From the NCBI GenBank assembly GCA_944332635.1, contig CALVKI010000010.1:21579-85578 (forward strand): 64,000 bases of DNA. The letters run 5' to 3'. This DNA is from an uncultured Bacilli bacterium. Lineage in GTDB: Bacteria > Bacillota_I > Bacilli_A > RF39 > UBA660. This document shows positions 2,621 through 37,872 of this stretch, in pieces; the first letter of the stretch is position 1; every line of letters begins with the position of its first letter. The notes below the pieces were generated by a model. That model searched no databases and was not told the DNA's origin. It was given only the letters and a program-made list of their open reading frames with translations. The translations under genes and the position numbers were made by a program.

Positions 2621-2709
2621 TTCAATTATTCACTTATTTCATTTTTTTTACACAATAAATTCACTAATTTGACACATATATTTTATAAACTGTATTAAAG
2701 GAGAAATTT

Positions 2710-3686
2710 ATGAAGAGAATTGTATATTTCGACAACATAAAAGGCATTTTAATATTATTTATTATTTTAGCTCATGTACTAAGTCTTTGCTCAAAATATT
2801 ATAACTACAATGATGACTTTTTTAAATTTGCTTCCTTATTTATGCTTCAATGTTTCTTTTTTATATCCGCCTATTTTTCATCTAAAAATAAAGAAAAAAA
2901 TGTAAAAGAATAATAAATTTATTAAAAACTTATCTCTTATGGCAAACTATTATTACCATTTATTATGCATATATTTTACGAATAATAGATTTTAGCTTTA
3001 ACTATTTTATACCAAGATATACATTATGGTTTCTTATTACTATGACTTTATATAATATATTTGAATTTATCTTAGAAAGAGCTGATTATAAAACAATGAT
3101 ACCACTTTCTATTGTAATAGGAATATTAGTGGGATTTATCCCTTGGATAGGTTCTGAACTATCTTTATCCAGAACTTTTGTGTTTTTTCCATTTTATGTT
3201 ATTGGTTATTATGCAAAAGAATTAAACATATTACCAAGAATAAATACAAAAAAGGTAAGACATATTACAATTATTGTATCCATATTAATTTTGATATTAA
3301 TTTTAAACTATAATGATATTTTATCAATTAAAATACTGAAAGGAAAATATAGTTATTATGATATTGGAAATATAAAACCGATTATAGCATGTATAGAACG
3401 TATATTATTTTATATGTTCAGTATTATTGTAAGTATAAGTTTTTTAAATCTAGTTCCTAGAAAAGAAGGAATATTAACTATATTAGGTAGAAATACATTA
3501 TATATATATCTAACACAGGGAATGATTTTAAAAACATTTATAACAGAAAAAATATTGTTTAATAATAAAGTTATTGGAACATTATTTTTATTTATATGTG
3601 CAATTATTATGACGATAATATTAACAAAAATGATAAAAGAGATAAAGAAAGGTAAAATTTATAGATTGGAGGAAGTAAATGGATAA
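2710..3686 (+). pseudogene. Acyltransferase-3 (OatA-like) family membrane protein, split by a -1 frameshift in an A7 tract (2894-2900)
   Basis: The N-terminal ORF (2710-2913) starts MKRIVYFDNIKGILILFIILAHV and has an FFFISAYF motif typical of acyltransferase_3. A different frame is open from 2892 and continues through 3686 as a multi-TM protein. A8 instead of A7 would restore a roughly 325-aa protein. Confidence 0.7.
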
Positions 3687-13952: not shown

Positions 13953-14489
13953 CTAATTATCTTTTAAAATTTCATAGATTTCTCTTTTTTCATGATTATA
14001 AAACTCTTTTCTTCTATATCCAAAAAATAATCGAATAATATTAGATGGAAAAGATACAATAAGTTGATTAAAGGTAACAACCGTATCATTATAAAACTTA
14101 ATTGAAGCAACTAGGTCAATTTCATTAGCATTTAAATCATCAATAATATGTACTAAAGACTCACTTTTAAATAGCTTTTCATTATCGTCTAAAATTTGAA
14201 ATAATTCATTATAAGACTTTTTTAATAAATCATTTAATTCAAAATGATTTAAATCAGGAACAATTTCACTATCTAATTGATCTAAAAAATCTTCCAACTT
14301 TAATTCTTTAATAATAACTTGTCTAGCTCTTTTTAGTAAATCTAATTTCCTTTGTAAAAATAAGTCGATATTATTCTCTGCTTCTTCCATTTTAACAATA
14401 GAGATACGAAATTTATTATGATATGAAATAAATATAATTCCTATCAATGCAACCACAACAATACAGCCTAAAACAACTTCTATCATCAT
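13953..14489 (-). CDS. LemA family protein
   Basis: Has an N-terminal TM helix. The C-terminal FYNDTVVTFNQLIVSFPSNIIRLFFGYRRKEFYN matches the LemA consensus. Confidence 0.65.
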   Translation of the reverse strand: MMIEVVLGCIVVVALIGIIFISYHNKFRISIVKMEEAENNIDLFLQRKLDLLKRARQVIIKELKLEDFLDQLDSEIVPDLNHFELNDLLKKSYNELFQILDDNEKLFKSESLVHIIDDLNANEIDLVASIKFYNDTVVTFNQLIVSFPSNIIRLFFGYRRKEFYNHEKREIYEILKDN

Positions 14490-14754
14490 ATCACCTCATC
14501 ATTATCATTATATCAAACAAACCCTTAAAAAGAAATATAGCAATAAATAAAACCAAAAAATTTCTTATTTTTATTTTTATAATAAGTTTTAATCTTTTCT
14601 CTACTTACTTCTATTTCTTGATCTGTCATTACTCCTTGGAATCTACTTTGTTCTGTAGAATAGATTGGTAAATCTTTAATTATTTGATCTTTAGTAAGGT
14701 GATAAACAGTAGAAGTATCTAGTTTAGTTTTGCTATCCGAATTTGTAGTATTAA

Positions 14755-16016
14755 TTAGATTACTACGTTTAGTACACTTCTCTTGTTTTTGTGAGTTCCT
14801 AACTTTTTTGGTAATTTGTTTTTTCTTTTTAAAATAGCTAACTGTAATGACTTTTTAGTAGCTAGATAATTTTCAGCAATATCCTTAAAAGAAGAAGCTA
14901 AAGAACACTCTAAATCTTTGTGAGAGATAGTAAAAGCTTTTTTAACCCCTTTTCTATAGGAAATTTCAATATCGTTAAATTTAAAAGACTTATTTAAAAT
15001 TCCTGATAATAATTCTTTTTTTATTGCAGAAAACATCATATTTAAAAATTTTTTATTTTTTAAATCCCTAGGTTTAAGACAAAAATATTCCTTTAATTGT
15101 TTCCTATCAAGTCTAGATAAATAATCAATTTTTTCATCAACAACATTAGAACTTACTAAATCAACTAATGTCATTCTTTCATCATCCTGCTTTAAAGGTA
15201 CTCTTGGTTGGTCAGCAACCATTCTTTTAAATACTTTAGAAAAAATATGATGAGTAATCTCTTCAGCTTTTTTACTATTAGCATGATTAGCAGATTCGTA
15301 TCCAATCCATCCATCAACAACCCCACTAAAAACTGGAGGATGATAAATATGTTTCTTTAAGTCGTCATCATCTTTTACTATCTCTTGTAATATTTGATAA
15401 TAGTCAGGAAGATGTTCTGAATCAGAATTAATAGTAAAGGAATTATCACAGCCGCATTTACTACAAGCATTAAATAAATATGGAATATTTTTTTCTTCAC
15501 ATTTATCTAAAAACTTTGTAGCAATTTTATGAAGATAATCTAAATCAACATTAACATATAAAATATGTTCTATATCAAAAGGTGAACGTTTAGTATTTCT
15601 ATCCTGTTCGTGAATATCAACAGAACTAGTTTGGTGACTGTTGTGAGAAATATCAAATAACGTATTTGAATATTTTGCTCTTCGTTTATATTGAAAAGCT
15701 ACAACGGCATCTTTCCATGTTGTAACATCTTTTACATTTTTAAAATATTGTTGAATTGAATATAATGAACTTGTACGAGGAATCTTTACTGTTGTTAAGT
15801 TCTTTTTCCAATAATTAAAAATTATAGTGTAAAAAGTGTTAAAATCATCACGATAATAAACATTACTTCCTTGTGAATAAACATGACCAATATTGACATT
15901 ATATTCAGAATCTAAAAATTATGTTTTGCATATGCAGTAATCAACGCATCGAAATTCTTGTAATCAAGAATTGGATTTTGAATTTTTTTATAAAATTCTT
16001 CTAAATTAGTTATCAT
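14755..16016 (-). pseudogene. Hypothetical ~420-aa protein, split by a -1 frameshift in a T5/A5 tract (plus-strand 15914-15918)
   Basis: The N-terminal frame (ATG at 16016, RBS AGGTGGA) reads MITNLEEFYKKIQNPILDYKNFDALITAYAKHNF and then stops. A second frame is open from about 15920 to 14755 and continues LDSEYNVNIGHVY...MVADQPRV. A T6 run would fuse the two frames. Confidence 0.55.
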
Positions 16017-16073
16017 AATAATCCACCTATAAATAACGCGTATATTACACCCAAAAAAAATAAAAAATGTCAA

Positions 16074-18047
16074 TTAAGTAGGCTTGACATTTTCCACTTT
16101 AGAGTCGAACACTTCCTGATCAGTACTAACAGGTTCTGTTCCCTTAATAAAATACATCATTTTTTTCTTTTTATCGCTATCTGTTGCTAAGCGTCCAGAA
16201 ATTGGTTCTACTAATACAGCAGATACATTTTTTGGCATTTCATACCATTCATCTCCAGGTGTAATATTTCGTTCGTAATACTCAATAGATTTATACCATA
16301 TATCTTGAGCATATTTATATTCGCTTGTTTTTAAAGCTTGATTATCATCATATCCAACCCAAACAGCACAAACTATATTATTGTTAAAGCCAATGTCCCA
16401 ATTATCTGTTTGAGTGGTACCACTCTTCAAAGCATATTTATGTGTAAGTTTAGGAGCAAGACCAATAGCCGTAGGGTAGTTATAATCTATATAATCACTA
16501 TCATAAGTAGCTGTTAATAAGTTATTTAAAATAAAAGTAATACTAGGATTTAATACTGCTTCTTTAGAATTTTTTGCCTCATATAAAACAGTACCATCCG
16601 AATCTTCTACTTTTTCAATAAAATGTGGAGTAACTTTGTTTCCTAAATTAGCAAATGCAGAATATCCAGCCGCCATTTCCAAAATATTAATCTCATTAGT
16701 ACCTAATGGAAGAGATGGGACATTTTCTAATTTGGAAGTAATACCGACACGCCTAGCAACATTAATTAGTGCATCACCACCTAAAAAAAGATGAGTTTTA
16801 ACTGCATAAATATTTTCTGAGTACGCAATAGCTGTACCCATAGAAATTGGTTTGTTTCCATAGGTTTTATTATAGTTTTGTGGAGTGTAATCTTCCTGAT
16901 CATTAAAAACAAAAGTAGTTTCTTCACTAGTAAAAGCGGAGCTAGAGGTAAAACCGTTCTCTAAAGCTGCATAATATAAATAGGGCTTCATAGTAGAACC
17001 CACCTGTCGAAAAGAATCTGTTGCTCGATTAAAAGCAGATTCATTATAATCTTTTCCTCCTACTAAAGACAAAACTCCACCTGTATTTGGATCCATCAAT
17101 ACAACAGATGTTTGAATTTTAGAATCTTCTGGAATAGCTTGTTTAATATTTTCTTCCACTTTTTTTTGTAAATCTAAATCTAAATTAGTATAAATTTTTA
17201 ATCCGCTAGTATCAGAATAAGATTTAGGTATACTATCTATAGATTCTAATTCATCCATAACAGCATCATGATAAAACATAACGGTAGTCAATTCATCTCT
17301 TTCCTTTTCACCAATAAATGTTAATTCTTCATTATAAGCATTTTCTTTTTCTTCTTGTGTAATAACACCATTTTCCACTAGTAAGTTTAAAATAAGTAAT
17401 TGCCTATTTTTAGCGGCTTCTAAATTGATAAGAGGAGAAAAATTTGAAGGTGATTTAGGAATGCCAGTTAATATGGTTGCTTCCGCTAAACTTAAATCTT
17501 TTGCGCTCTTTCCAAAATAGTAATTACTAGCATTTTCAATTCCATACATTCCATGTCCGTAATTAATTGTATTAAGATAGCCTTCTAATATTTCATCTTT
17601 AGAGTAAGTAGACTCAATTTTTATGGTATACCACATCTCATCCCATTTTCTTTTCCAAGTTTTATCAAAAGATAAAAACAGATTTTTTGCATACTGTTGA
17701 GTAATAGTTGAAGCTCCCTGCTTAGTAGTTCCACTAGTTAAGTTAATATAAAAAGCTTTTAGAATTCTAAGATAATCAAAACCATGATGTTTGTAAAAAT
17801 TTTTATCCTCTGTATAAATAGTAGCATCAACAACATAAGGTGAAATATCATCAAGAGATACCCATTCTTTTTCATCATTTCCTTGAAAAAAGACTTCATT
17901 ATTCTTATCGTATAGAAAAACACTATTTGTAGTATTAATAACTACCTTAGGAGAAAGTTTAACATAAAGCTGTATTCCTAAATAACAAAGAAAAATAATA
18001 ATAATAACAAAGCCAAAAACTTTTGCAAGTTTTTTTAAAATACGCAT
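16074..18047 (-). CDS. Penicillin-binding protein 1A family (bifunctional GT51 transglycosylase/transpeptidase)
   Basis: Has an N-terminal TM helix, the GT51 motifs EDKNFYKHHGFD and the transpeptidase SxxK motif GSTMKP. Confidence 0.9.
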   Translation of the reverse strand: MRILKKLAKVFGFVIIIIFLCYLGIQLYVKLSPKVVINTTNSVFLYDKNNEVFFQGNDEKEWVSLDDISPYVVDATIYTEDKNFYKHHGFDYLRILKAFYINLTSGTTKQGASTITQQYAKNLFLSFDKTWKRKWDEMWYTIKIESTYSKDEILEGYLNTINYGHGMYGIENASNYYFGKSAKDLSLAEATILTGIPKSPSNFSPLINLEAAKNRQLLILNLLVENGVITQEEKENAYNEELTFIGEKERDELTTVMFYHDAVMDELESIDSIPKSYSDTSGLKIYTNLDLDLQKKVEENIKQAIPEDSKIQTSVVLMDPNTGGVLSLVGGKDYNESAFNRATDSFRQVGSTMKPYLYYAALENGFTSSSAFTSEETTFVFNDQEDYTPQNYNKTYGNKPISMGTAIAYSENIYAVKTHLFLGGDALINVARRVGITSKLENVPSLPLGTNEINILEMAAGYSAFANLGNKVTPHFIEKVEDSDGTVLYEAKNSKEAVLNPSITFILNNLLTATYDSDYIDYNYPTAIGLAPKLTHKYALKSGTTQTDNWDIGFNNNIVCAVWVGYDDNQALKTSEYKYAQDIWYKSIEYYERNITPGDEWYEMPKNVSAVLVEPISGRLATDSDKKKKMMYFIKGTEPVSTDQEVFDSKVENVKPT

Positions 18048-22843: not shown

Positions 22844-23362
22844 ATGAAAAAATTAATCATTATACTAGCAATAATCGTATCTATATTGGTCATAAATAAA
22901 GAAGAAAAAATAATAATACCAAAAGAATCAATCCGTTTTAGAGTGATTGCGAACAGTGATAGTGATAATGACCAAATTATAAAAAAGAAAGTAGTAAATA
23001 ATTTAAATGAAGAAATAAGAAAAATAACTACGTTAAATAACTCACTAACAAATTCTAGAAAAAATATAAAAGAAGAAATACCAACATTTGCAAATGTAGT
23101 AAAAAAAACTTTAGAAGAACAAGAGACTAATCAAACATTTACCATAGATTATGGAATGAATTATTTTCCTGAAAAACAATATAAAGGAATAGTTTATGAA
23201 GAAGGAGAATATGAATCATTAGTAATTACATTAGGAAATGGTTTAGGAGAAAATTTTTGGTGTGTATTATTTCCTCCGTTATGTCTATTGGATACAGAAG
23301 AGGAAGCAGAAAATGTAGAATATACATCTTTTGTAAAAGAATTAATAGACAAGTATTTTTAA
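22844..23362 (+). CDS. spoIIR: Stage II sporulation protein R
   Basis: Has the motifs IRFRVIANSDSDNDQ and WCVLFPPLC conserved in SpoIIR. It sits next to prmC, as in B. subtilis. Confidence 0.8.
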   Translation: MKKLIIILAIIVSILVINKEEKIIIPKESIRFRVIANSDSDNDQIIKKKVVNNLNEEIRKITTLNNSLTNSRKNIKEEIPTFANVVKKTLEEQETNQTFTIDYGMNYFPEKQYKGIVYEEGEYESLVITLGNGLGENFWCVLFPPLCLLDTEEEAENVEYTSFVKELIDKYF

Positions 23363-23396: not shown

Positions 23397-23930
23397 ATGA
23401 ATGACAACTTTATATATTTTTTTATGGCTATAGGATTGAGTATGGATGCCTTTTCTTTGGCATTGGCATATGGGACTACAAAAATACCAATAAATAAAAA
23501 AATAATATTAAGTCTAACTGTAGGAATATTTCATTTTTTTATGCCTAAGATTGGGGGAATATTATCAACAGAACTGTTGTTGAATTATGTAGCTAAAGCC
23601 AATTATATAGTAGGAATAATATTTATAATTTTAGCTATAGAAATGTTTTTATCAAAAAATGATAAAAAAAAGGGAACAATAACTAATATAATATCGATTA
23701 TTATTTTTGCTTTTACGGTAAGTATTGATAGTTTCTCTGTAGGTATAGCATTATCATTGACAACTAAAAATATTAGTACTGCATGTTTTATTTTTGCGAG
23801 TGTAAGTACAATATTTACATTTTTAGGAGTAGAATTAGGAAATAAGATTGCCCAAAAGTTTGAAAGTAAAGCCGAATATATAGGAATTATAATTTTATTA
23901 CTATTAGGAATAAAATATTTTTTGTTTTAA
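23397..23930 (+). CDS. DUF204 membrane protein (MntP manganese efflux pump / YtaF-like)
   Basis: Begins FFMAIGLSMDAFSLALAYG and has six predicted TM helices. Confidence 0.7.
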   Translation: MNDNFIYFFMAIGLSMDAFSLALAYGTTKIPINKKIILSLTVGIFHFFMPKIGGILSTELLLNYVAKANYIVGIIFIILAIEMFLSKNDKKKGTITNIISIIIFAFTVSIDSFSVGIALSLTTKNISTACFIFASVSTIFTFLGVELGNKIAQKFESKAEYIGIIILLLLGIKYFLF

Positions 23931-30973: not shown

Positions 30974-31024
30974 AATAAGTATAATTCTTTTTTTTTTGTC
31001 AAAACTTATAATGAGGTGAAAAAA

Positions 31025-31669
31025 ATGAGAAGAATAAAATTGAAACCATATGTCTTACCTACTCTAATGATTGTAGCAATTGTCAGTGTAATGTTTGGAA
31101 CTGCAATAATAAGAACTAATTTAAAAAAGAATAATACAGAAGATGAATTAACAAGTTATGTAACAAGCACAGTTTTAGAAGAAAAAGAACCAGTAATAAA
31201 AGAAAGTACAATGATTGTTAATCCTTACACAGATACAACCGTTAGCATAGGGAAAAATTACTATGATTATAAAGCAGATTCTGCTACTCAAGAAAAGTCA
31301 ATTATATATCATGATAATACATATATGCAAAACTCTGGTACTGATTTTATAGGAGAAAAAACTTTTGATATTGTATCAGTGTTAGATGGCAGTGTTACAG
31401 ATGTTAAAGAAGATGAAACTTTAGGAAAAGTAGTAGAAATAAAACATGATAATGGATACGTTAGTATTTATCAGAGTTTATCTGAGGTGAATGTAAAAAA
31501 AGGAGATATGGTAACACAAGGGCAAGTAATAGGAAAAAGTGGTACCAATGAATTAGACAAAGATATGGGAAATCACTTGCACTTTGAATTATATATAAAT
31601 GGTAAAGTAGTAGATCCAATTCTTTACTTAAATAAAGAATTACAAACTTCTGAAAATAAAGAGCAATAG
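31025..31669 (+). CDS. Membrane-anchored M23 (LytM) peptidase, possibly SpoIIQ-like
   Basis: Has an N-terminal TM helix and the motifs KHDNGYVSIYQSL and HLHFEL. An RBS GAGGTGA precedes the ATG at 31025. It lies immediately upstream of mbl/mreB. Confidence 0.75.
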   Translation: MRRIKLKPYVLPTLMIVAIVSVMFGTAIIRTNLKKNNTEDELTSYVTSTVLEEKEPVIKESTMIVNPYTDTTVSIGKNYYDYKADSATQEKSIIYHDNTYMQNSGTDFIGEKTFDIVSVLDGSVTDVKEDETLGKVVEIKHDNGYVSIYQSLSEVNVKKGDMVTQGQVIGKSGTNELDKDMGNHLHFELYINGKVVDPILYLNKELQTSENKEQ

Positions 31670-32825: not shown

Positions 32826-33920
32826 ATGAAAGAACAAGTTCTAGATGCAAGTAAAATAGTCTTGATTACATTTTTATTTACTGCAATAATAATGCCGGTG
32901 ATAAAAAATATTGCTATTCATATTGGTGCAATAGATGTCCCACGCCTCGATGAAGGTCATAGACATATCCATAAGAAAGCAACACCAATGCTAGGAGGAG
33001 TAGGAATATTTTTAGGCTTTTTGTTTGGATATATGTTATTTGGAGAACAAAGTATTAGAATGAATTCTATACTAATTGGAAGCTTCATTATTATATTGAC
33101 TGGAATTATTGATGATATAAAGCCTATCAGAGCCTACCAAAAACTGATAGGACACATAGTAGCTGCATGTATCATAGTATTTTATGGACAAATAACATTA
33201 AATAATATAACTGCATTTGGTTTTTCTTTATCCTTTGGCATAATAGCACCATTGATTACAATTTTGTTTATTGTAGCCTGTACTAATATTATAAATTTGA
33301 TAGATGGCGCGGATGGATTAAGTGGTGGAGTATGTTCTATATTTTATCTGACTATAGGTATTATTGGATTCTATCAAGGAAGAGGAGGAAGTTTAGTTAT
33401 GATTTTAACATTTATTATGTTAGGATCTACATTAGGCTTTTTGCTACATAATTTTTATCCTGCCAAAATATTTGCCGGAGATTGTGCAACTTTCATGGGA
33501 TTTATAATATCAATAATAACATTATTAGAATTTAAAGGACCTGCTTTGACATCTTTCTTTGTTCCAATTATGATTTTAGGCATACCCATTTTAGACACAT
33601 TATTTGCTATTATAAGAAGACTTTTGAAAGGGCAACCTCCATTTCAAGCTGACAAAAAACACCTTCATCATCAATTATTAGGCATGAATTTTTCACAAAG
33701 AACTACCGTTCTAATTATCTATGGTATAAATCTATTATTTGCAGCAGCATCAATTCTTTATACAATTAAAGACCCTGTTTTAGGAAAAATAGTCTATATC
33801 ATCATATTTATTATTGTATTATGGTTTGTTTTACATACTACAATAATTTCTGATAAAACACCTACAAGAACAAAGAAAATAGAAGAAAGAATCACTTTCT
33901 TTAAAAGAAAAAAATCCTAA
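32826..33920 (+). CDS. tagO: Undecaprenyl-phosphate GlcNAc-1-phosphate transferase (GT4 MraY/WecA/TagO family)
   Basis: Has the motifs NLIDGADGLSGG and DDIKPI and multiple TM helices. The ATG at 32826 has an RBS AGGAAGTGA. Confidence 0.8.
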   Translation: MKEQVLDASKIVLITFLFTAIIMPVIKNIAIHIGAIDVPRLDEGHRHIHKKATPMLGGVGIFLGFLFGYMLFGEQSIRMNSILIGSFIIILTGIIDDIKPIRAYQKLIGHIVAACIIVFYGQITLNNITAFGFSLSFGIIAPLITILFIVACTNIINLIDGADGLSGGVCSIFYLTIGIIGFYQGRGGSLVMILTFIMLGSTLGFLLHNFYPAKIFAGDCATFMGFIISIITLLEFKGPALTSFFVPIMILGIPILDTLFAIIRRLLKGQPPFQADKKHLHHQLLGMNFSQRTTVLIIYGINLLFAAASILYTIKDPVLGKIVYIIIFIIVLWFVLHTTIISDKTPTRTKKIEERITFFKRKKS

Positions 33921-33923
33921 GAC

Positions 33924-33955
33924 AAAACTGCTAACAAAAGCAGTTTTTCTTTTTA
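33924..33955 (+). terminator. Rho-independent terminator of tagO
   Basis: Stem AAAACTGCT / AGCAGTTTT followed by TCTTTTT. Confidence 0.65.
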
Positions 33956-33992
33956 TAAATACTGGAAAAAATTGGAAAAAAAGGAGATTAAT

Positions 33993-34724
33993 ATGATAAA
34001 TTTTATAATTTGTGAAGATGAACAAGAATTATTGAGAGAATATAAAAATCAAATTGATAAATTTATGATGAAATATGACACTGAATATAAATGCCATACC
34101 TTTACATGTTATGATAAACATTGGGATTATGAAATAAAGAAGATAAAAGGTTTCAAAATATATTTATTAGATATAAAAACTGATACGGGATCTGGAATAA
34201 ATGCAGCGAGAAAAATTAGAGAAGAATATGATGATTGGGTATCAATGATTATAATGATTTCTGGATATGCAGAGTACAAATATGAAGCCTTGGGAAAGAG
34301 ACTAATGCTTGTGGATTTCATTAATAAATTAGATCACTCGGAAAAGAAGCTACAAGATGCCTTATTAATTTGTATTAAAAATTATGATAATAAATATAAT
34401 ACATTAAAATATACATATAGAAATATCGCTTATAATGTAGAATATAGAAGTATTATAAAAATAGAAAAAGAGATGGATAGCAAGAGATGCATAATACATA
34501 CAGAAGAAGACGATTATCCAATTCAAGGGACTTTAAATGATGTGTTAAAAAAATTGGATAAAAGATTTTTTAAATGTAATAGAGCAATCGCTATTAACAT
34601 AGAGCAAGTACAATACTATAATCTTAGTAAAAATGTAGCAGTTCTAAAAAATGGAGAAGAATTTAACGAAATATCAAGAAGTAGAAAAAAGGAGATGTTT
34701 AATCGTGTTAGAGGTGTTTATTAG
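33993..34724 (+). CDS. Two-component response regulator, REC + LytTR DNA-binding domain (AgrA/VirR-like)
   Basis: Begins MINFIICEDE and has the phosphoacceptor in YLLDIKTD. The C-terminal LytTR block is RCIIHTEEDDYPIQGTLNDVLKKLDKRFFKCNRAIAINIEQV. The ATG at 33993 has an RBS AAGGAGA. Confidence 0.85.
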   Translation: MINFIICEDEQELLREYKNQIDKFMMKYDTEYKCHTFTCYDKHWDYEIKKIKGFKIYLLDIKTDTGSGINAARKIREEYDDWVSMIIMISGYAEYKYEALGKRLMLVDFINKLDHSEKKLQDALLICIKNYDNKYNTLKYTYRNIAYNVEYRSIIKIEKEMDSKRCIIHTEEDDYPIQGTLNDVLKKLDKRFFKCNRAIAINIEQVQYYNLSKNVAVLKNGEEFNEISRSRKKEMFNRVRGVY

Positions 34725-36006
34725 AATCTTTTGTGCAATCATTTTAGTGTTGAGTGGAGATTATATAATAAGAATGATTGTAAATCCTTATAAAAAAATT
34801 GAAATATATAAAAAAATTATACTCATATTAGCACTAGTAATATTATTAGTAGTAACATATCAAACTGATTATAAAGGATTAAATTCAGTAATGTTTTTTA
34901 TTTTGGGAATCATAGTTTGTAAATATATTTATCAAATATCTATAGAAGAAAGTACAATAATATTTGCAATTTTAGTATTAATGATAGCATTAAGTGATAT
35001 AGTAACATCGTTGCTTTTTATGTCCAGATTTACTGTAACAGAAATTAGAACCAATGAAATAATATTTTTATTTTCTAATATAACAGTTAATGTTATAACA
35101 ATAATCATAATTAATATTAAGATAATAAGAAATTCTTTAAATAAATTTTATAATACGATTTTACAAAAGAGCTCAATAACAAATATTATATTTTTTATAT
35201 TATTAATAATAGGGTTCAGTTATTTATTATATAATATAGGAATATCTCAATTTTTTAATAAAGATTATATTATAAGTTTTACAGTCTTTATTATATTTAC
35301 AATAATCACATGTATATTCATTGAAAATCAAAATAAATATAAAAAATTAGAAGAAGAGTATGATGTACTTTTTAATTATATTCAAACATTTGAAGAATGG
35401 ATAGAAAAAGAACAACTTAATCGTCACGAATATAAAAATCAACTTGCAGTTTTGCGTTGCTTAGCAAAAGAGAAGAAGGTAAAAGAAAAAATAGATGAAA
35501 TTTTAGAAGATAACATAAATATTGAGGGACAAGCAGTAACGAATTTGAAAAATTTACCAAAAGGAGGGATTAAAGGATTAATGTACTACAAAGCTGCAAT
35601 TGCTCAAAAATTTAAAATTAATTTAACTACAGATGTATGTATTGAAGAAGATGGAATATTAAGTAAATTATCCGAAAAAAATATCAGAATTTTATGTAAA
35701 TTAATTGGAATATATTTTGATAATGCAATAGAGGCTGCTTCTGAAAGTAGAAAGAAAAATCTTACAATAGAGGTATATGAATTTAGAGAAAAAGTAAAGT
35801 TTGTATTTTCTAATACTTTTAAAAAACATAAAAATATGAAAGACAGAAATAAAAAAGGAATTTCATCAAAGGGAACAGGAAGGGGAAATGGATTGTATTT
35901 TGCTTCTAAATTAATTAAAGAAAATAAATGGTTAGAAGAAAAGCAAGAAATAATAGATAATTATTATATTCAAGAAATTATTATAAAAAAAGAACAATCT
36001 TTATAA
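34705..36006 (+). CDS. AgrC/VirS-like sensor histidine kinase (HPK10, HATPase_c_5) with polytopic N-terminal sensor
   Basis: Has 6-7 predicted TM helices, then an H-box NRHEYKNQL, an N-box LIGIYFDNAIEA and a G-box GTGRGNGLYFASKL. A GTG start at 34705 with an RBS GGAGA overlaps the end of the response regulator. Confidence 0.8.
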   Translation: MLEVFIRIFCAIILVLSGDYIIRMIVNPYKKIEIYKKIILILALVILLVVTYQTDYKGLNSVMFFILGIIVCKYIYQISIEESTIIFAILVLMIALSDIVTSLLFMSRFTVTEIRTNEIIFLFSNITVNVITIIIINIKIIRNSLNKFYNTILQKSSITNIIFFILLIIGFSYLLYNIGISQFFNKDYIISFTVFIIFTIITCIFIENQNKYKKLEEEYDVLFNYIQTFEEWIEKEQLNRHEYKNQLAVLRCLAKEKKVKEKIDEILEDNINIEGQAVTNLKNLPKGGIKGLMYYKAAIAQKFKINLTTDVCIEEDGILSKLSEKNIRILCKLIGIYFDNAIEAASESRKKNLTIEVYEFREKVKFVFSNTFKKHKNMKDRNKKGISSKGTGRGNGLYFASKLIKENKWLEEKQEIIDNYYIQEIIIKKEQSL

Positions 36007-36550
36007 AATGTTCAACAGGAGTATATTATAAATATAGTTGGTAAAATATTTACCTCTGTACAAAAATCAAATTTGATAGAATAAATATTTAAAATCAAAT
36101 ATTTGGGAATAAAATGGATATACATAAATTTAAATATTAAAAGCAATAATATTCATATTATATATAATAAACTATATTCCACATTATAAGTGTAAAATAT
36201 TAATAAATTATAGAATTTTATCTTTTATATAATAATTATTACTTTTCCTTATAGTTCGTAAATAGAACTTTCATAATAAAATCTGTAATACTAGTTTTAT
36301 TTGCTAAAATGATTTTAAGTATATAAAATTGTACAATAAGATAAAAAATACATCTTTCATAGTTATGAAAAATCAAAAAGTCCTATTAGTATTATAAAGT
36401 AATAATTAGATATATTAAAAAGGAGTTAAACATGAAACAAATCTCAAAAATATCCATAAAATATTAAATATTATTATGATAATAGAATAAATAGTCAATT
36501 AAATTTGTTTTGGATATATAAAATGTATAACTTTTTTGAGGTTATTTTTA

Positions 36551-36589
36551 ATTAAAACGAACGAAAAAGGGTGATGTAAAATCACCCTT
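36551..36589 (-). terminator. Rho-independent terminator downstream of agrD (minus strand)
   Basis: A perfect 9-bp stem AAGGGTGAT / ATCACCCTT with a 5-nt loop, followed on the minus strand by TTTTTCGTTCGTTTT. Confidence 0.65.
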
Positions 36590-36644
36590 AAATATTGATG
36601 CCTTTATAAAATTATTGCTATCAACACTATTTGTTAACGAATCT

Positions 36645-36767
36645 CTAGTCTTGAAATAAATTGTTACTAGTAGGTTCTTCCATTACAAATAAAATACACC
36701 CTAGACTAGCAGATCCTGTTACTAATATAGCAAGTGCCATCAATATCTGTGATAATCTTTTTTTCAT
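36645..36767 (-). CDS. agrD: AgrD-like autoinducing peptide precursor (40 aa), not in ORF track
   Basis: The product is MKKRLSQILMALAILVTGSASLGCILFVMEEPTSNNLFQD. It has an N-terminal amphipathic helix, a single Cys followed four residues later by the conserved E-E-P motif, and a charged tail. It lies 44 nt downstream of agrB on the same strand, with RBS AAAGGAG. Confidence 0.7.
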   Translation of the reverse strand: MKKRLSQILMALAILVTGSASLGCILFVMEEPTSNNLFQD

Positions 36768-36811
36768 ATTAATTCATACACTCCTTTATAAAAATAATAT
36801 ATTAAACGCCT

Positions 36812-37413
36812 TTAGGCGTTTAACCCTTTGTAATTATTGTATGGTTGTTTAAATAACCAATATGTGATTGGACTAACTATAATAGCTTGAACAATTAATG
36901 CTGATAAAAAAATAGCAGTCCAATATTTATCTTGTAATAAAATAATTAATAATGTATAAATGAAACCAATCATAACGGTAATAATCTTACGAATGATTCT
37001 CTTTCTTTTATTTGAAAGAGGTCTTTTTTTGTATCCGCTGGTGCAAAAAACAAATAATGTAAAATGCAAATTGCACAAATGACACATATAGAAAAATTAG
37101 ATAATTGTATATGTAACAATAAAAATGGTATTACAATAAAGTTAAAAGTAGAAAACAATAAGCACTGATAACTTTTCTCAGCATGAAATCCGAAACCGGT
37201 ATAACGAATGACATTAAAACAAATGATAACCAAAATAAGTTCTCTTAACATATCTAAAATAATTGCAAGAATAATTAATATTACCATTTTTGAAATAGTA
37301 AGATAAAGTCCTTCTAAACCGTATTTTATCCTCTTTTTATCGTAGTCAGAAATGGATTGGTATTTACTAATAAAATTCATGCTACAATCTAAAAATAATC
37401 GTTTCATAAACAA
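36812..37413 (-). pseudogene. agrB: AgrB family AIP-processing membrane peptidase, -1 frameshift in an A7 tract (plus-strand T7 at 37024-37030)
   Basis: The N-terminal frame (37413-36970) contains IRYTGFGFHAEKSYQC and FAPADTKK, matching the AgrB catalytic His/Cys region and the APAATKKKPI motif. The second frame (37087-36812) continues KKRPLSNKRKRIIRKIITVMIGF, like the AgrB C-terminus. A8 would fuse the two into a roughly 198-aa protein. Confidence 0.8.
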
Positions 37414-37653
37414 TCACCATAACCTCTAACAAAACAATTATACAATTAAACAAATATTAGAACAAAAAAATCCATAAATTGTAAAAAAAAATAAATTCTT
37501 TGTCGAATTTTGTCGAAAATTAGGAAAATATTACCAAATAAGTTAATCATATAATCAATTAGAGGAATTTTTATCAAAATAATGATAAAAATTGGTATTA
37601 TTAAAACACCAAGAGGCATGGTATGTAATTGGTAGAAATGAGGTGTAAGCAAG

Positions 37654-37872
37654 ATGGTTGGACGCGTAAAGTGGTTCAATAATGATAAAGGATACGGCTT
37701 TATAGAATACAAAGAAAATGAAGATGTATTTGTTCATTACTCTGCTATAGAGTTAGAGGGTTATAAGACTTTATCAGAAGGACAACTAGTAGAATTTAAA
37801 TTGGTAGAAACAAGCAAAGGATACCAAGCTTTAAATGTAAAATTAGTTAAAGAAGCTGCTACTGTTAAATAG
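37654..37872 (+). CDS. cspA: Cold-shock protein (CspA family)
   Basis: Begins [19 protein letters not shown] and has RNP motifs. An RBS GAGGTG is 8 nt upstream. Confidence 0.9.

What the first reader, a model, noticed from the sequence alone, without database searches (positions are those of the whole stretch)
33993..37413. Complete, unannotated agr-type peptide quorum-sensing module: VirR/VirS-like RR-HK pair facing a convergent agrB-agrD
The four components of an accessory-gene-regulator system are all present. A REC-LytTR regulator (33993-34724) and an AgrC/VirS-like HPK10 kinase (34705-36006) lie on the plus strand. On the minus strand lie an AgrB-family processing peptidase (36812-37413) and a 40-aa AgrD-type precursor (36645-36767). 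The layout is tail-to-tail, with the RR before the HK, rather than the staphylococcal agrBDCA order. Neither agrD nor full-length agrB appears in the ORF track. The predicted pheromone core CILFV is not one I recognise from characterised AIPs. A sporulating AT-rich Firmicute carrying a private thiolactone/lactone peptide signal plus its sensor is a plausible regulator of sporulation, toxin production or biofilm formation.
Basis: partly seen in the sequence, partly recalled or inferred. Interest (0 to 1): 0.85.

Follow-up and report, generated by a model that had tools for sequence, protein, structure and literature searches.

The report
Agr peptide quorum-sensing locus, agrB frameshifted
This is a genuine agr-type peptide signalling locus (signal precursor, processing enzyme, membrane sensor and regulator) from an uncultured, probably spore-forming gut bacterium. 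It is an ordinary member of a well-known kind, but its processing gene is broken by one missing base in this assembly, and a conserved binding site for the sporulation master regulator lies in front of it.

Summary
All four agr components are at the stated coordinates. They are a REC-LytTR regulator (33993-34724,+), an AgrC-like kinase (34705-36006,+), a 40-aa AgrD (36645-36767,-) and AgrB (36812-37413,-).

Its 602 nt are split at an A7 run (37024-37030). Six other assemblies of the same species give a full-length AgrB (three checked at DNA level carry A8). The break is probably a homopolymer error, less likely a real agr-null variant.

The layout csp<-|agrB-agrD->|<-HK<-RR<-tagO recurs in 45 species-level MAGs of uncultured gut Bacilli. 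The peptide core and the kinase sensor are hypervariable, which is the classic agr pattern.

The follower motif [DE]EP lines up with S. aureus DEVEVP. That makes a six-residue ring, CILFVM, more likely than CILFV.

A new observation is an invariant tandem TGTCGAA-N3-TGTCGAA (consensus Spo0A boxes) about 93 bp upstream of agrB. SpoIIR and a SpoIIQ-like gene are in the window. This suggests Spo0A controls signal production. No LytTR-type autoinduction site was found.

Verdict: a new member of a known kind, of moderate interest.

The parts
33924..33947 (+). Terminator-like hairpin ending the upstream tagO/Glycos_transf_4 gene. It insulates the RR-HK operon from that gene.
   Evidence: Terminator scan. 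The position is conserved in related loci.
33963..33979 (+). Conserved direct repeat TGGAAAA-N3-TGGAAAA just upstream of the RR gene. It is the likely RR-HK promoter region: in relatives the second copy reads TGgTAAAAT, an extended -10.
   Evidence: Found in all loci where the tagO-RR spacer could be read. Its function is inferred.
33993..34724 (+). AgrA-like response regulator (REC + LytTR), 243 aa.
   Evidence: Pfam LytTR 1.5e-13 (51 bits against a cut-off of 22.6). REC 25.3 bits, below the cut-off of 30.2. NCBIfam AgrA model aligned over residues 4-229. The only PDB hits are the S. aureus AgrA LytTR domain.
34705..36006 (+). AgrC-like HPK10 sensor histidine kinase, 433 aa. It has about 7 hydrophobic segments in residues 1-206, then the H-box (NRHEYKN) and the ATPase domain. 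It overlaps the RR gene by 20 nt.
   Evidence: NCBIfam AgrC aligned over residues 35-424 to model positions 23-413 of 414, E 1.1e-13. PF14501 HATPase_c_5 is precomputed on the identical protein. The only PDB hits are S. aureus AgrC, 6e52 at 1.9e-10. Hydropathy.
36007..36644 (.). 638-bp species-specific spacer, 18% G+C, between the two convergent operons. No recognisable gene or RNA. It contains a tiny 11-aa ORF with a ribosome-binding site at 36432 (+).
   Evidence: Similarity only in the same species, apart from one 43-bp match to L037, where the spacer's small-ORF RBS/start resembles the RBS and start of L037's agrD. No Rfam hit above threshold. In relatives the spacer ranges from about 30 bp to a few hundred bp.
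36567..36589 (-). Intrinsic terminator of the agrBD transcript, 55 nt after the agrD stop codon.
   Evidence: Terminator scan: 9-bp stem followed by a T run.
36645..36767 (-). agrD: 40-aa AIP precursor MKKRLSQILMALAILVTGSASLG-CILFVM-EEPTSNNLFQD (leader, core, follower).
   Evidence: Good ribosome-binding site. The identical ORF was called in 5 other assemblies. An orthologous ORF lies downstream of agrB in nearly all related loci whose contig extends that far. 25 of 34 orthologues match TIGR04223 AgrD and 7 of 34 match PF05931.
36801..36824 (-). Conserved stem-loop between agrB and agrD. The agrB stop codon lies in the loop.
   Evidence: Covariation across 23 loci: 88% of cells paired, 15 double changes against 4 expected, 0 of 500 shuffles reach this. 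Role unknown.
36812..37413 (-). agrB, interrupted. The 5' part (37407/37413 down to the A run) encodes residues 1-128, including the catalytic H75 and C82. The 3' part (37023-36812) is in the -1 frame.
   Evidence: The repaired protein matches Pfam AgrB at 7.8e-32. H75 and C82 are invariant in 47 sequences.
37024..37030 (-). A7 homopolymer where one base is missing. It lies inside the conserved APADTKKRP motif.
   Evidence: A8 in L001, L002 and L004, which are the same species at 99.7-99.9% identity. Six full-length versions against one 147-aa version in the protein cluster.
37501..37517 (-). Tandem consensus Spo0A boxes. On the + strand they read TGTCGAA-TTT-TGTCGAA. They are oriented TTCGACA towards agrB and lie 93 bp upstream of the agrB ATG.
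   Evidence: Unique in the window, with 0 of 100 shuffles giving a match. Tandem box present in 35 of the 45 related species-level loci (exact in 24, 1-3 mismatches in 11), always in the same orientation. Elsewhere the same 17-mer lies upstream of spo0A, abrB-like genes and orphan kinases.
37478..37506 (-). Candidate agrB promoter: -35 TCGACA (inside the proximal 0A box), 17-nt spacer, -10 TACAAT.
   Evidence: Promoter scan, 10 of 12 matches. The -10 is only moderately conserved. Alternative candidates are TGGTAATAT at 37528-37536 (-) and the conserved TATAAT about 25-30 nt before the agrB start codon.

Best explanation
The locus is a chromosomal agr-type autoinducing-peptide quorum-sensing system of an uncultured, low-G+C, probably endospore-forming gut member of the Bacilli. 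Relatives are deposited under names such as 'Mycoplasma sp. CAG:877', 'uncultured Tenericutes' and 'Candidatus Faecimonas'.

Shown:
- Four genes in two convergent operons. agrB-agrD lie on the minus strand; an AgrA-like REC-LytTR regulator and an AgrC-like kinase lie on the plus strand.
- The layout is inherited vertically at one fixed site, between csp and tagO, in 45 species.
- The AgrD core and the kinase sensor domain are hypervariable, while everything around them is conserved.

Inferred by homology:
- AgrB (catalytic H75/C82) removes the [DE]EP... follower and cyclises AgrD through Cys24.
- Because the follower aligns without gaps with S. aureus DEVEVPKEL, the ring is most likely the six residues CILFVM. 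The exocyclic tail length is unknown. If there is no tail, the peptide may rearrange to a homodetic cyclopeptide, as in clostridia.
- The peptide is sensed by the polytopic kinase, which phosphorylates the LytTR regulator.

Inferred from a conserved site:
- agrBD transcription is controlled by Spo0A~P through a tandem consensus 0A box rather than by classical AgrA autoinduction. This would tie signal production to the decision to sporulate.

In this particular assembly agrB carries a 1-nt deletion in an A8 tract. This is most likely a homopolymer sequencing or assembly error.
For: Family assignments:
- AgrB: Pfam 7.8e-32 and NCBIfam 5.4e-31.
- Kinase: AgrC model aligned end to end; only AgrC among PDB hits.
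- Regulator: LytTR 1.5e-13; only AgrA among PDB hits.
- AgrD: orthologues hit TIGR04223 in 25 of 34 cases.
- AgrB H75/C82 are invariant.

Synteny and intactness: the layout is conserved and agrB is intact in 45 MAGs.

Hypervariability: among congeners the kinase sensor is 27-55% identical, whereas the catalytic half is 82-88% and TagO 90-94%. AgrD always has exactly 5 variable residues between Cys and [DE]EP.

Ring size: six-membered rings are known in C. acetobutylicum and R. cellulolyticum (PMC10301443, PMC8251862).

0A box:
- Unique in the window.
- Invariant inside an otherwise variable spacer.
- The same motif lies upstream of spo0A in 10 metagenomic loci and upstream of an abrB-like gene and kinases.
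- SpoIIR (1e-42) and a SpoIIQ-like gene (9e-48) are in the window.
- These uncultured Bacilli orders include predicted sporulators (PMC10868615).

Autoregulation: clostridial agr systems are generally not autoregulatory (PMC10602386).

Frameshift as an error:
- Other assemblies carry A8.
- All three indels relative to L001 are shorter homopolymers in the window.
- A second gene is split at another A7 run.
Against: - The window's own AgrD peptide hits no AgrD profile at E<=1.
- My Pfam scan of the kinase returned no HATPase_c_5 hit, although one is precomputed for the identical protein.
- The kinase and regulator scores lie far below NCBIfam's equivalog cut-offs, so these proteins are agr-like, not orthologues of the staphylococcal ones.
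- No spo0A gene is in the window, and I could not link one to this lineage.
- The 0A box sits between divergent genes and could serve csp. Its distance to both genes changes between clades, and about 10 distant loci lack it.
- Three promoter candidates give opposite predictions, activation or repression.
- Ring size and the mature structure are predictions only.
- Nothing shows expression.
Confidence: 0.72

Rival explanations
1. The agrB frameshift is real. This strain would be a natural signal-negative (agr-defective) variant created by slipped-strand mispairing in the A8 tract. It could still sense the peptide made by its neighbours, making it a 'cheater' or phase-variant state.
For: - The break is in a homopolymer, the kind of site where agr-null variants arise in S. 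aureus. From my own knowledge, an A7->A8 slip in agrA was described by Traber & Novick in 2006.
- The truncated 147-aa product is what is deposited at NCBI for this contig.
- The catalytic H75/C82 part remains open.
- The RR, HK and agrD are intact.
Against: - Six other assemblies of the same species are full length.
- All three indel differences to L001 in 12 kb are 1-nt contractions of homopolymers in the window, two of them intergenic. Against them there are only about two substitution events, which is an unnatural indel-to-substitution ratio.
- A second, unrelated gene is broken the same way at an A7 run.
Confidence: 0.22
2. The tandem TGTCGAA repeat does not control agrBD. It would regulate the divergent csp gene, or be the operator of another protein such as the locus's own LytTR regulator.
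For: - The repeat lies 136 bp from the csp start, and in a second clade only about 80 bp from csp and about 203 bp from agrB.
- An unrelated low-G+C contig (L119) has the same tandem box overlapping the promoter of a csp gene with no agrB nearby.
- An invariant site next to a quorum-sensing operon would classically be the AgrA box.
Against: - The likely csp promoter, a conserved extended -10 TGGTATTAT at 37593-37601, puts the boxes near -90.
- The orientation (TTCGACA towards the gene) and the distance of 80-98 bp to the agrB ATG match what is seen at spo0A genes in L080 and L111, at 79 and 94 bp.
- Known LytTR sites are repeats spaced about 21 bp centre to centre, not 10 bp (my own knowledge of the AgrA, ComE, VirR and RgaR sites; RgaR repeats at -51/-72 in PMC10602386).
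- The sequence is a perfect match to TGNCGAA.
Confidence: 0.25
3. The adjacent HK-RR pair is not the receptor of the AgrD peptide. The circuit would be uncoupled, as with C. difficile RgaS-RgaR and Agr1, and the kinase would sense something else.
For: - Uncoupled clostridial systems exist (PMC10602386).
- No LytTR-type repeat was found upstream of agrB or of the RR gene.
- One species (L036) lacks the RR.
Against: - The four genes stay together in more than 30 species.
- The sensor domain is the fastest-evolving part of the locus along with the AgrD core. This is the pattern expected of a co-evolving ligand-receptor pair.
- The sensor region aligns with the AgrC model.
Confidence: 0.1
4. The frameshift is bypassed on purpose. 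A programmed -1 ribosomal slip on A_AAA_AAA, or transcriptional slippage, would restore AgrB and act as a translational throttle.
For: A -1 slip on ACA AAA AAA G gives exactly the conserved ...ADTKKRPLS... junction.
Against: All 45 related species, and the other assemblies of the same species, are simply in frame with A8 or its equivalent. There is no conserved downstream stimulator. A7 is short for efficient transcriptional slippage.
Confidence: 0.02

Closest known systems
Staphylococcus aureus agr (agrBDCA, with RNAIII)
   Same: - The same four protein families.
- AgrB catalytic His/Cys.
- AgrD divided into leader, Cys core and acidic follower; DEPECPKSL in relatives lines up with DEVEVPKEL.
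- Polytopic HPK10 kinase and LytTR regulator.
- Hypervariable core and sensor between lineages.
   Different: - Two convergent operons with the RR before the HK, rather than one agrBDCA operon.
- No RNAIII-like effector detected.
- No AgrA-type direct repeats upstream of agrB.
- A six-residue ring is predicted rather than five.
- Sequence identity is low; scores lie far below NCBIfam's equivalog cut-offs.
Clostridial agr systems that govern sporulation: C. acetobutylicum agrBD/agrCA (R6T0 peptide) and Ruminiclostridium cellulolyticum Rc-AIP1 (CWFWSY)
   Same: - The hosts are spore-forming anaerobes.
- agrBD and the two-component genes are separate transcription units.
- Six-membered rings.
- Cores rich in Trp and hydrophobic residues in relatives (CWWWTV, CEWWIF, CAWWFN).
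- A link to sporulation.
- These systems are generally not autoregulatory (PMC10301443, PMC8251862, PMC10602386).
   Different: - In those species agr acts upstream of sporulation. Here the evidence is a Spo0A box upstream of agrBD, implying control in the other direction or a feedback loop.
- The host is an uncultured Bacilli lineage, not a member of the Clostridia.
- There is no LanM-like effector gene downstream.
C. difficile Agr2 (R20291)
   Same: A complete four-gene agr locus whose gene order differs from that of S. aureus (PMC8534292).
   Different: I did not verify the exact orientation of Agr2. Agr2 is strain-variable, whereas this locus is fixed across a whole lineage.
Bacillus subtilis abrB and spoIIG promoters (tandem 0A boxes)
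   Same: A direct tandem of TGNCGAA heptamers with a 3-bp spacer, that is, a 10-bp period. From my own knowledge this is the arrangement bound by Spo0A dimers at abrB. The boxes lie either just downstream of one candidate promoter (as at abrB, giving repression) or over the -35 of another (as at spoIIG, giving activation).
   Different: The target is a quorum-sensing operon. Neither binding nor the sign of regulation has been tested.

Membership tests
AgrB (PF04647, NF002210) | Full-length profile match above the family threshold | tested here: met
   After restoring one A, Pfam gives 110.6 bits against a cut-off of 23, covering residues 10-176. NCBIfam PRK01100 gives 107.9 bits, which is below its equivalog cut-off of 282. 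The protein is therefore a family member, not an equivalog.
AgrB (PF04647, NF002210) | Catalytic His and Cys (S. aureus H77/C84) | tested here: met
AgrB (PF04647, NF002210) | Intact open reading frame in this sequence | tested here: not met
   The 602-nt interval is split at the A7 run 37024-37030. It is intact in all other assemblies and species examined.
AgrD (PF05931, TIGR04223) | Profile match | tested here: inconclusive
   The window peptide gives no hit at E<=1. Among positional orthologues, 25 of 34 hit TIGR04223 (best 1.1e-7) and 7 of 34 hit PF05931. The window peptide is 53-63% identical to the close orthologues.
AgrD (PF05931, TIGR04223) | Short ORF directly downstream of agrB, with a hydrophobic leader, a Cys/Ser-containing hydrophobic core and an acidic follower containing E-P | tested here: met
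   leader MKKRLS...ATGAASxG, nearly invariant Cys24, 5 variable residues, E31 invariant and P32 nearly invariant within a [DE]EP motif.
AgrD (PF05931, TIGR04223) | Processed to a cyclic (thio)lactone peptide | not testable with these tools
   Needs expression and LC-MS. Predicted [M+H]+ is 707.362 for cyclo-CILFVM and 576.321 for cyclo-CILFV.
AgrC / HPK10 kinase | Polytopic N-terminal sensor (6-7 TM) joined to an HPK10-type DHp and HATPase_c_5 domain | tested here: met
   About 7 hydrophobic segments in residues 4-206. The AgrC model aligns over residues 35-424. PF14501 is precomputed on the identical protein. The only PDB hits are AgrC. Caveat: my own Pfam scan did not return PF14501.
AgrC / HPK10 kinase | Conserved phospho-accepting His in the H-box | tested here: met
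   NRHEYKNQL aligns with S. aureus AgrC FRHDYVNIL in the 6e52 alignment.
AgrC / HPK10 kinase | Activated by the cognate AIP | not testable with these tools
   Indirect support only: the sensor domain and the AgrD core are the hypervariable parts of the locus.
AgrA / LytTR response regulators | REC domain plus C-terminal LytTR DNA-binding domain | tested here: met
   LytTR 51.2 bits against a cut-off of 22.6. REC 25.3 bits, below the cut-off of 30.2 but aligned over residues 5-113. The AgrA model covers residues 4-229. PDB hits are the AgrA LytTR domain only.
Staphylococcal-type agr circuit | Autoinduction through paired LytTR direct repeats (about 9 bp, 12-13 bp spacer) upstream of agrB | tested here: not met
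   Phylogenetic footprinting of the csp-agrB spacer shows only one invariant element, the 10-bp-period tandem TTCGACA. No LytTR-like pair lies upstream of the RR gene either.
Staphylococcal-type agr circuit | Single agrBDCA operon with a divergent RNAIII effector | tested here: not met
   The locus has two convergent operons. Rfam finds no RNAIII or other RNA at threshold in 33800-37800.
Spo0A regulon member (0A box) | Consensus TGNCGAA box or boxes in the promoter region | tested here: met
   Two perfect TGTCGAA boxes at 37501-37507 and 37511-37517. The tandem is unique in the window, with 0 of 100 shuffles matching, and is conserved in 35 of 45 loci.
Spo0A regulon member (0A box) | Spo0A encoded by the organism, and binding to or regulation of the site | not testable with these tools
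   There is no spo0A in the window. SpoIIR and a SpoIIQ-like gene are present. Spo0A is common in low-G+C 'Bacilli bacterium' MAGs, but I could not tie one to this lineage.

The most novel reading that the evidence does not exclude
Across a whole order-level lineage of uncultured, genome-reduced gut Bacilli, production of a species-specific six-residue cyclic peptide is wired directly to the sporulation master regulator Spo0A through a tandem 0A box, rather than to AgrA autoinduction. Quorum signalling and entry into sporulation would then form a feedback loop. A few members would replace the ring Cys by Thr, giving a possible Thr-lactone AIP.
Probability: 0.35. Interest if true: 0.55.

Novelty: new member of a known kind. 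Interest (0 to 1): 0.4.

Why it matters
Agr systems are well known, and large-scale mining of AIPs from gut genomes has already been published (PMC11953309). The locus itself therefore adds a new member, not a new principle.

Three things give it modest value.
1. It is a fixed, vertically inherited and rapidly diversifying signal-receptor pair in a lineage with no cultured representative. The predicted peptides can be synthesised and might be used to probe or manipulate sporulation and growth of these organisms.
2. In clostridia agr promotes sporulation through unknown routes. A conserved Spo0A box in front of agrBD offers a concrete, testable link in the opposite direction.
3. The AgrD family here is missed by the Pfam and NCBIfam models for the window's own peptide, so such loci are easily under-annotated.

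The frameshift is a caution: a single homopolymer error hid the key gene from the ORF track.

Tried and rejected
- A literature search for 'CILFV' found nothing relevant.
- I looked for LytTR/AgrA-type direct repeats upstream of agrB and of the RR gene by aligning 17-28 orthologous spacers. None was found.
- I first took the invariant TTCGACAAAATTCGACA to be a candidate AgrA box. I rejected that after a metagenome scan showed it in genomes of 17-66% G+C upstream of spo0A, abrB-like genes, parA/soj, ComK-like genes and orphan kinases. It is the Spo0A box.
- I checked the 638-bp spacer for a second agrBD relic or an RNAIII-like RNA. It holds only a 43-bp match resembling the ribosome-binding site and start of a distant agrD, no AgrB remnants and no Rfam family.
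- I tried to show that spo0A is present in this lineage. tblastn of the window was negative. A search with a low-G+C Spo0A from a motif locus returned thousands of 'Bacilli bacterium' Spo0As, but none could be tied to these MAGs.
- I tried to recover the NCBI source record of the window through the truncated AgrB. It was not on record.
- I considered a programmed frameshift and rejected it, because all relatives are in frame.
- I looked for papers on convergent agr gene order. None was useful.

Full report
**Observation.** The ORF list and the sequence confirm three of the four genes exactly as described. A 243-aa regulator starts at the ATG at 33993. A 433-aa kinase starts at the GTG at 34705 and overlaps the regulator gene by 20 nt. 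A 40-aa ORF lies at 36645-36767 on the minus strand behind a good ribosome-binding site. An independent gene caller made the same three calls on a 96-kb metagenome contig (L001) that is 99.9% identical.

The fourth gene is not as described. The interval 36812-37413 is 602 nt long. It holds two overlapping ORFs in different frames, of 147 aa and 91 aa, which meet at an A7 run; on the + strand this is T7 at 37024-37030. Adding one A gives a 198-aa protein.

**Family assignments.**
- AgrB: the repaired protein matches Pfam AgrB over its whole length (E 7.8e-32, 110.6 bits against a cut-off of 23) and NCBIfam's AgrB-like model (5.4e-31). An alignment of 47 sequences keeps H75 and C82 invariant. 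The motif APADTKKRP, in which the frameshift lies, is also conserved.
- Kinase: it aligns with NCBIfam's AgrC model from residue 35 to 424 (1.1e-13). In the whole PDB it matches only S. aureus AgrC (6e52 at 1.9e-10; 4bxi), with the H-box His aligned. It has about seven hydrophobic segments in its first 206 residues. My own Pfam scan gave no HATPase_c_5 hit, although PF14501 is precomputed for the identical protein. I treat this as an effect of composition and filtering.
- Regulator: it has a LytTR domain (1.5e-13) and a weak REC match. In the PDB it matches only the AgrA LytTR domain.
- AgrD: the 40-aa peptide hits no AgrD profile on its own. However, 25 of 34 positional orthologues hit TIGR04223 'AgrD family cyclic lactone autoinducer peptide' (best 1.1e-7), and 7 hit PF05931.

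**The frameshift.** Three other assemblies of the same species (L001, L002, L004) carry A8 and encode an intact AgrB. The 90%-identity cluster holds six full-length versions (198-207 aa) and one 147-aa version from an NCBI contig of 90 kb, which is the window's product. All 45 related species are intact.

Over 12 kb the window differs from L001 by three indels. All three are one-base contractions of homopolymers in the window (41195, 38487, 37023), against roughly two substitution events. A second, unrelated gene, an acyltransferase-3-like gene at 2690-3686, is split in the same way at another A7 run.

I therefore judge the break to be a homopolymer sequencing or assembly error, with probability about 0.7. 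A genuine slipped-strand agr-null variant is the main alternative, at about 0.2. A programmed -1 slip on A_AAA_AAA would restore the protein, but it is not needed in any relative, so I consider it very unlikely.

**Organism and conservation.** AgrB homologues at 80% identity are abundant in gut metagenomes. NCBI names one of them 'accessory gene regulator B family protein [Candidatus Faecimonas intestinavium]'.

A scan of one genome per species found 45 loci. All come from uncultured MAGs labelled Bacilli, Tenericutes, Mycoplasmatota, 'Mycoplasma sp. CAG:877' or Erysipelotrichaceae; a few carry Muribaculaceae labels, which I take to be binning errors. Wherever the contig is long enough, the order is csp <- | agrB -> agrD -> | <- HK <- RR <- tagO. 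The locus is therefore old, chromosomal and vertically inherited.

The window also encodes SpoIIR (TIGR02837, 1.1e-42) and a SpoIIQ-like M23 protein (9.2e-48). The uncultured orders related to Mycoplasmatales (RF39, RFN20, ML615J-28) are predicted to include sporulators (PMC10868615). I did not establish which of these orders the window belongs to.

**Signal and receptor.** All orthologous AgrDs share the leader MKKRLSxLLxAVAMLATGAASxG. After it come a nearly invariant Cys, exactly five highly variable and mostly hydrophobic or Trp-rich residues, then [DE]EP and a short follower.

In the more distant clade the follower reads DEPECPKSL. This aligns without gaps with S. aureus DEVEVPKEL, which follows directly after the ring (AIP-I is YSTCDFIM; my own knowledge).

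Six-membered rings are documented or predicted for C. acetobutylicum (R6T0) and R. cellulolyticum (CWFWSY, which controls sporulation and rearranges to a homodetic cyclopeptide) (PMC10301443, PMC8251862). The tail length cannot be predicted.

Among congeners whose TagO is 90-94% identical and whose kinase catalytic half is 82-88% identical, the kinase sensor domain is only 27-55% identical. This is the classic signature of agr specificity divergence and supports the view that the adjacent kinase is the receptor.

**Regulation.** Aligning the csp-agrB spacer from 17 species shows one invariant island in otherwise variable DNA: TTCGACAAA[A/T]TTCGACA, at window 37501-37517 on the minus strand. 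It is unique in the window, with 0 of 100 shuffles matching. A tandem box is present in 35 of the 45 loci, exact in 24 and with 1-3 mismatches in 11. It is always oriented towards agrB and lies 80-98 bp from the agrB ATG in the main clade.

On the other strand it reads TGTCGAA-N3-TGTCGAA. That is two perfect Spo0A '0A boxes' (consensus TGNCGAA) in the tandem arrangement known from abrB (my own knowledge). A metagenome scan supports this reading. The same 17-mer occurs in genomes of 17-66% G+C. Ten hits lie next to a spo0A gene (mostly directly upstream). Others lie upstream of an AbrB-like gene, parA/soj, ComK-like genes and membrane HisKA orphan kinases. At two low-G+C spo0A genes (L080, L111) the orientation and the distance to the start codon (79 and 94 bp) match those at agrB (93 bp).

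By contrast, no LytTR-type repeat pair is conserved upstream of agrB or of the RR gene. This agrees with the view that clostridial agr systems are generally not autoregulatory (PMC10602386).

My working model is that Spo0A~P directly controls agrBD. The sign of that control is open.
- If the promoter is TCGACA-17-TACAAT, the boxes overlap -35/-45, which resembles spoIIG and suggests activation.
- If the promoter is the extended -10 TGGTAATAT ten nucleotides upstream of the boxes, they lie at about +3 to +21, which resembles abrB and suggests repression.
- The boxes could instead serve the divergent csp gene. One unrelated contig has them on a csp promoter. Here, however, the likely csp promoter (TGGTATTAT at 37593-37601) puts them near -90.

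I could not demonstrate spo0A in this lineage.

**Other features.**
- A 9-10-bp hairpin between agrB and agrD, with the agrB stop codon in its loop, is conserved with compensatory changes. 88% of cells are paired, there are 15 double changes against 4 expected, and 0 of 500 shuffles reach that level. Its role is unknown.
- agrBD ends at a clean terminator at 36567-36589.
- The RR-HK operon follows the tagO terminator and a conserved TGGAAAA-N3-TGG[A/T]AAAA element.
- The 638-bp spacer between the operons (18% G+C) is species-specific and empty.

**Comparison and verdict.** The locus works like an agr system and belongs to the AgrB, AgrD, HPK10 and LytTR families. It is not an orthologue of the staphylococcal operon. 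It has a different operon structure, no RNAIII, no AgrA boxes and probably a six-membered ring.

Its closest functional analogues are the clostridial agr systems tied to sporulation. Variation in gene order is already known (C. difficile Agr2, PMC8534292), and AIPs from gut genomes have been mined at scale (PMC11953309).

I class it as a new member of a known kind. The candidate Spo0A wiring and the lineage-wide conservation are the only points that go beyond routine annotation. Interest is 0.4.

Noticed in passing
window 36801-36824 (minus strand): A stem-loop lies between agrB and agrD, with the agrB stop codon in its loop. It is positionally conserved in about 23 related loci and shows compensatory base changes in the upper stem. 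It may be a partial terminator or an mRNA-stabilising or processing element that sets the AgrB:AgrD ratio.
   Followed up: partly
window 33963-33979 (+): A direct repeat TGGAAAA-N3-TGGAAAA lies immediately upstream of the RR gene and is conserved in every related locus. In relatives the second copy reads TGGTAAAAT, like an extended -10. In three distant loci it is replaced by the palindrome TGGAAnnnnnTTCCA.
   Followed up: partly
window 2690-3686 (+), A7 run at 2894-2900: A second gene, an acyltransferase-3-like membrane protein, is split by a one-base deficit in an A7 run. Adding one A gives a continuous 332-codon frame. This suggests a systematic homopolymer undercall in the assembly.
   Followed up: partly
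window 14480-16080 (minus strand): A long open frame of about 387 codons has no early start codon; only a 155-aa ORF is listed at 14755-15222. It may be another damaged gene.
   Followed up: no
L040, L048, L049 (agrD, about 50-100 bp downstream of agrB): Three distant orthologous AgrD peptides have Thr instead of Cys at the ring-forming position: ...STFTWWLLADEP, ...STCTLWWYLDEP and ...GTMFTIWIWTDEP. This hints at Thr-lactone AIPs. L048 also has a Cys one residue earlier.
   Followed up: no
L024 6760-8180; L020 6824-9447; L036: L024 carries an IS3-like transposase inserted between agrD and the kinase gene. L020 has two tandem kinase copies that are 99.5% identical, either a recent duplication or an assembly artefact. 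L036 has the kinase but no regulator gene.
   Followed up: partly
L155 2786-6230: An unrelated low-G+C metagenome contig has the same RR->HK-> <-agrB convergent layout (AgrB 37% identical). It also has a tandem 0A box about 570 bp beyond agrB that points at a membrane HisKA orphan kinase gene.
   Followed up: no
L119 9100-9200: In another low-G+C contig the same tandem 0A box overlaps the promoter (TTCGAC-16-TACAAT) of a csp gene 71% identical to the window's, with no agrB nearby. Cold-shock protein genes may therefore be Spo0A targets in some lineages.
   Followed up: partly
window 36432-36467 (+): A tiny ORF, MKQISKISIKY, sits behind a strong ribosome-binding site (AAAGGAG) inside the 18%-G+C spacer. 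Its start region resembles the ribosome-binding site and start of a distant agrD (43 bp, 86% identity to L037). Nothing else supports it as a gene.
   Followed up: partly
window 22844-23362 and 31016-31669 (+): Sporulation genes are present: SpoIIR (1.1e-42, just under the equivalog cut-off) and a membrane-anchored M23 protein that best matches SpoIIQ (9.2e-48). A weak YtaF/MntP-like protein lies at 23397-23930.
   Followed up: partly
L171-L182 (spo0A loci of low-G+C 'Bacilli bacterium' MAGs): In these MAGs spo0A is embedded among glycolytic genes (pgk, a GT4 glycosyltransferase, tpiA, spo0A, a DAG-kinase-like gene, gpmI) rather than next to spoIVB/recN.
   Followed up: no
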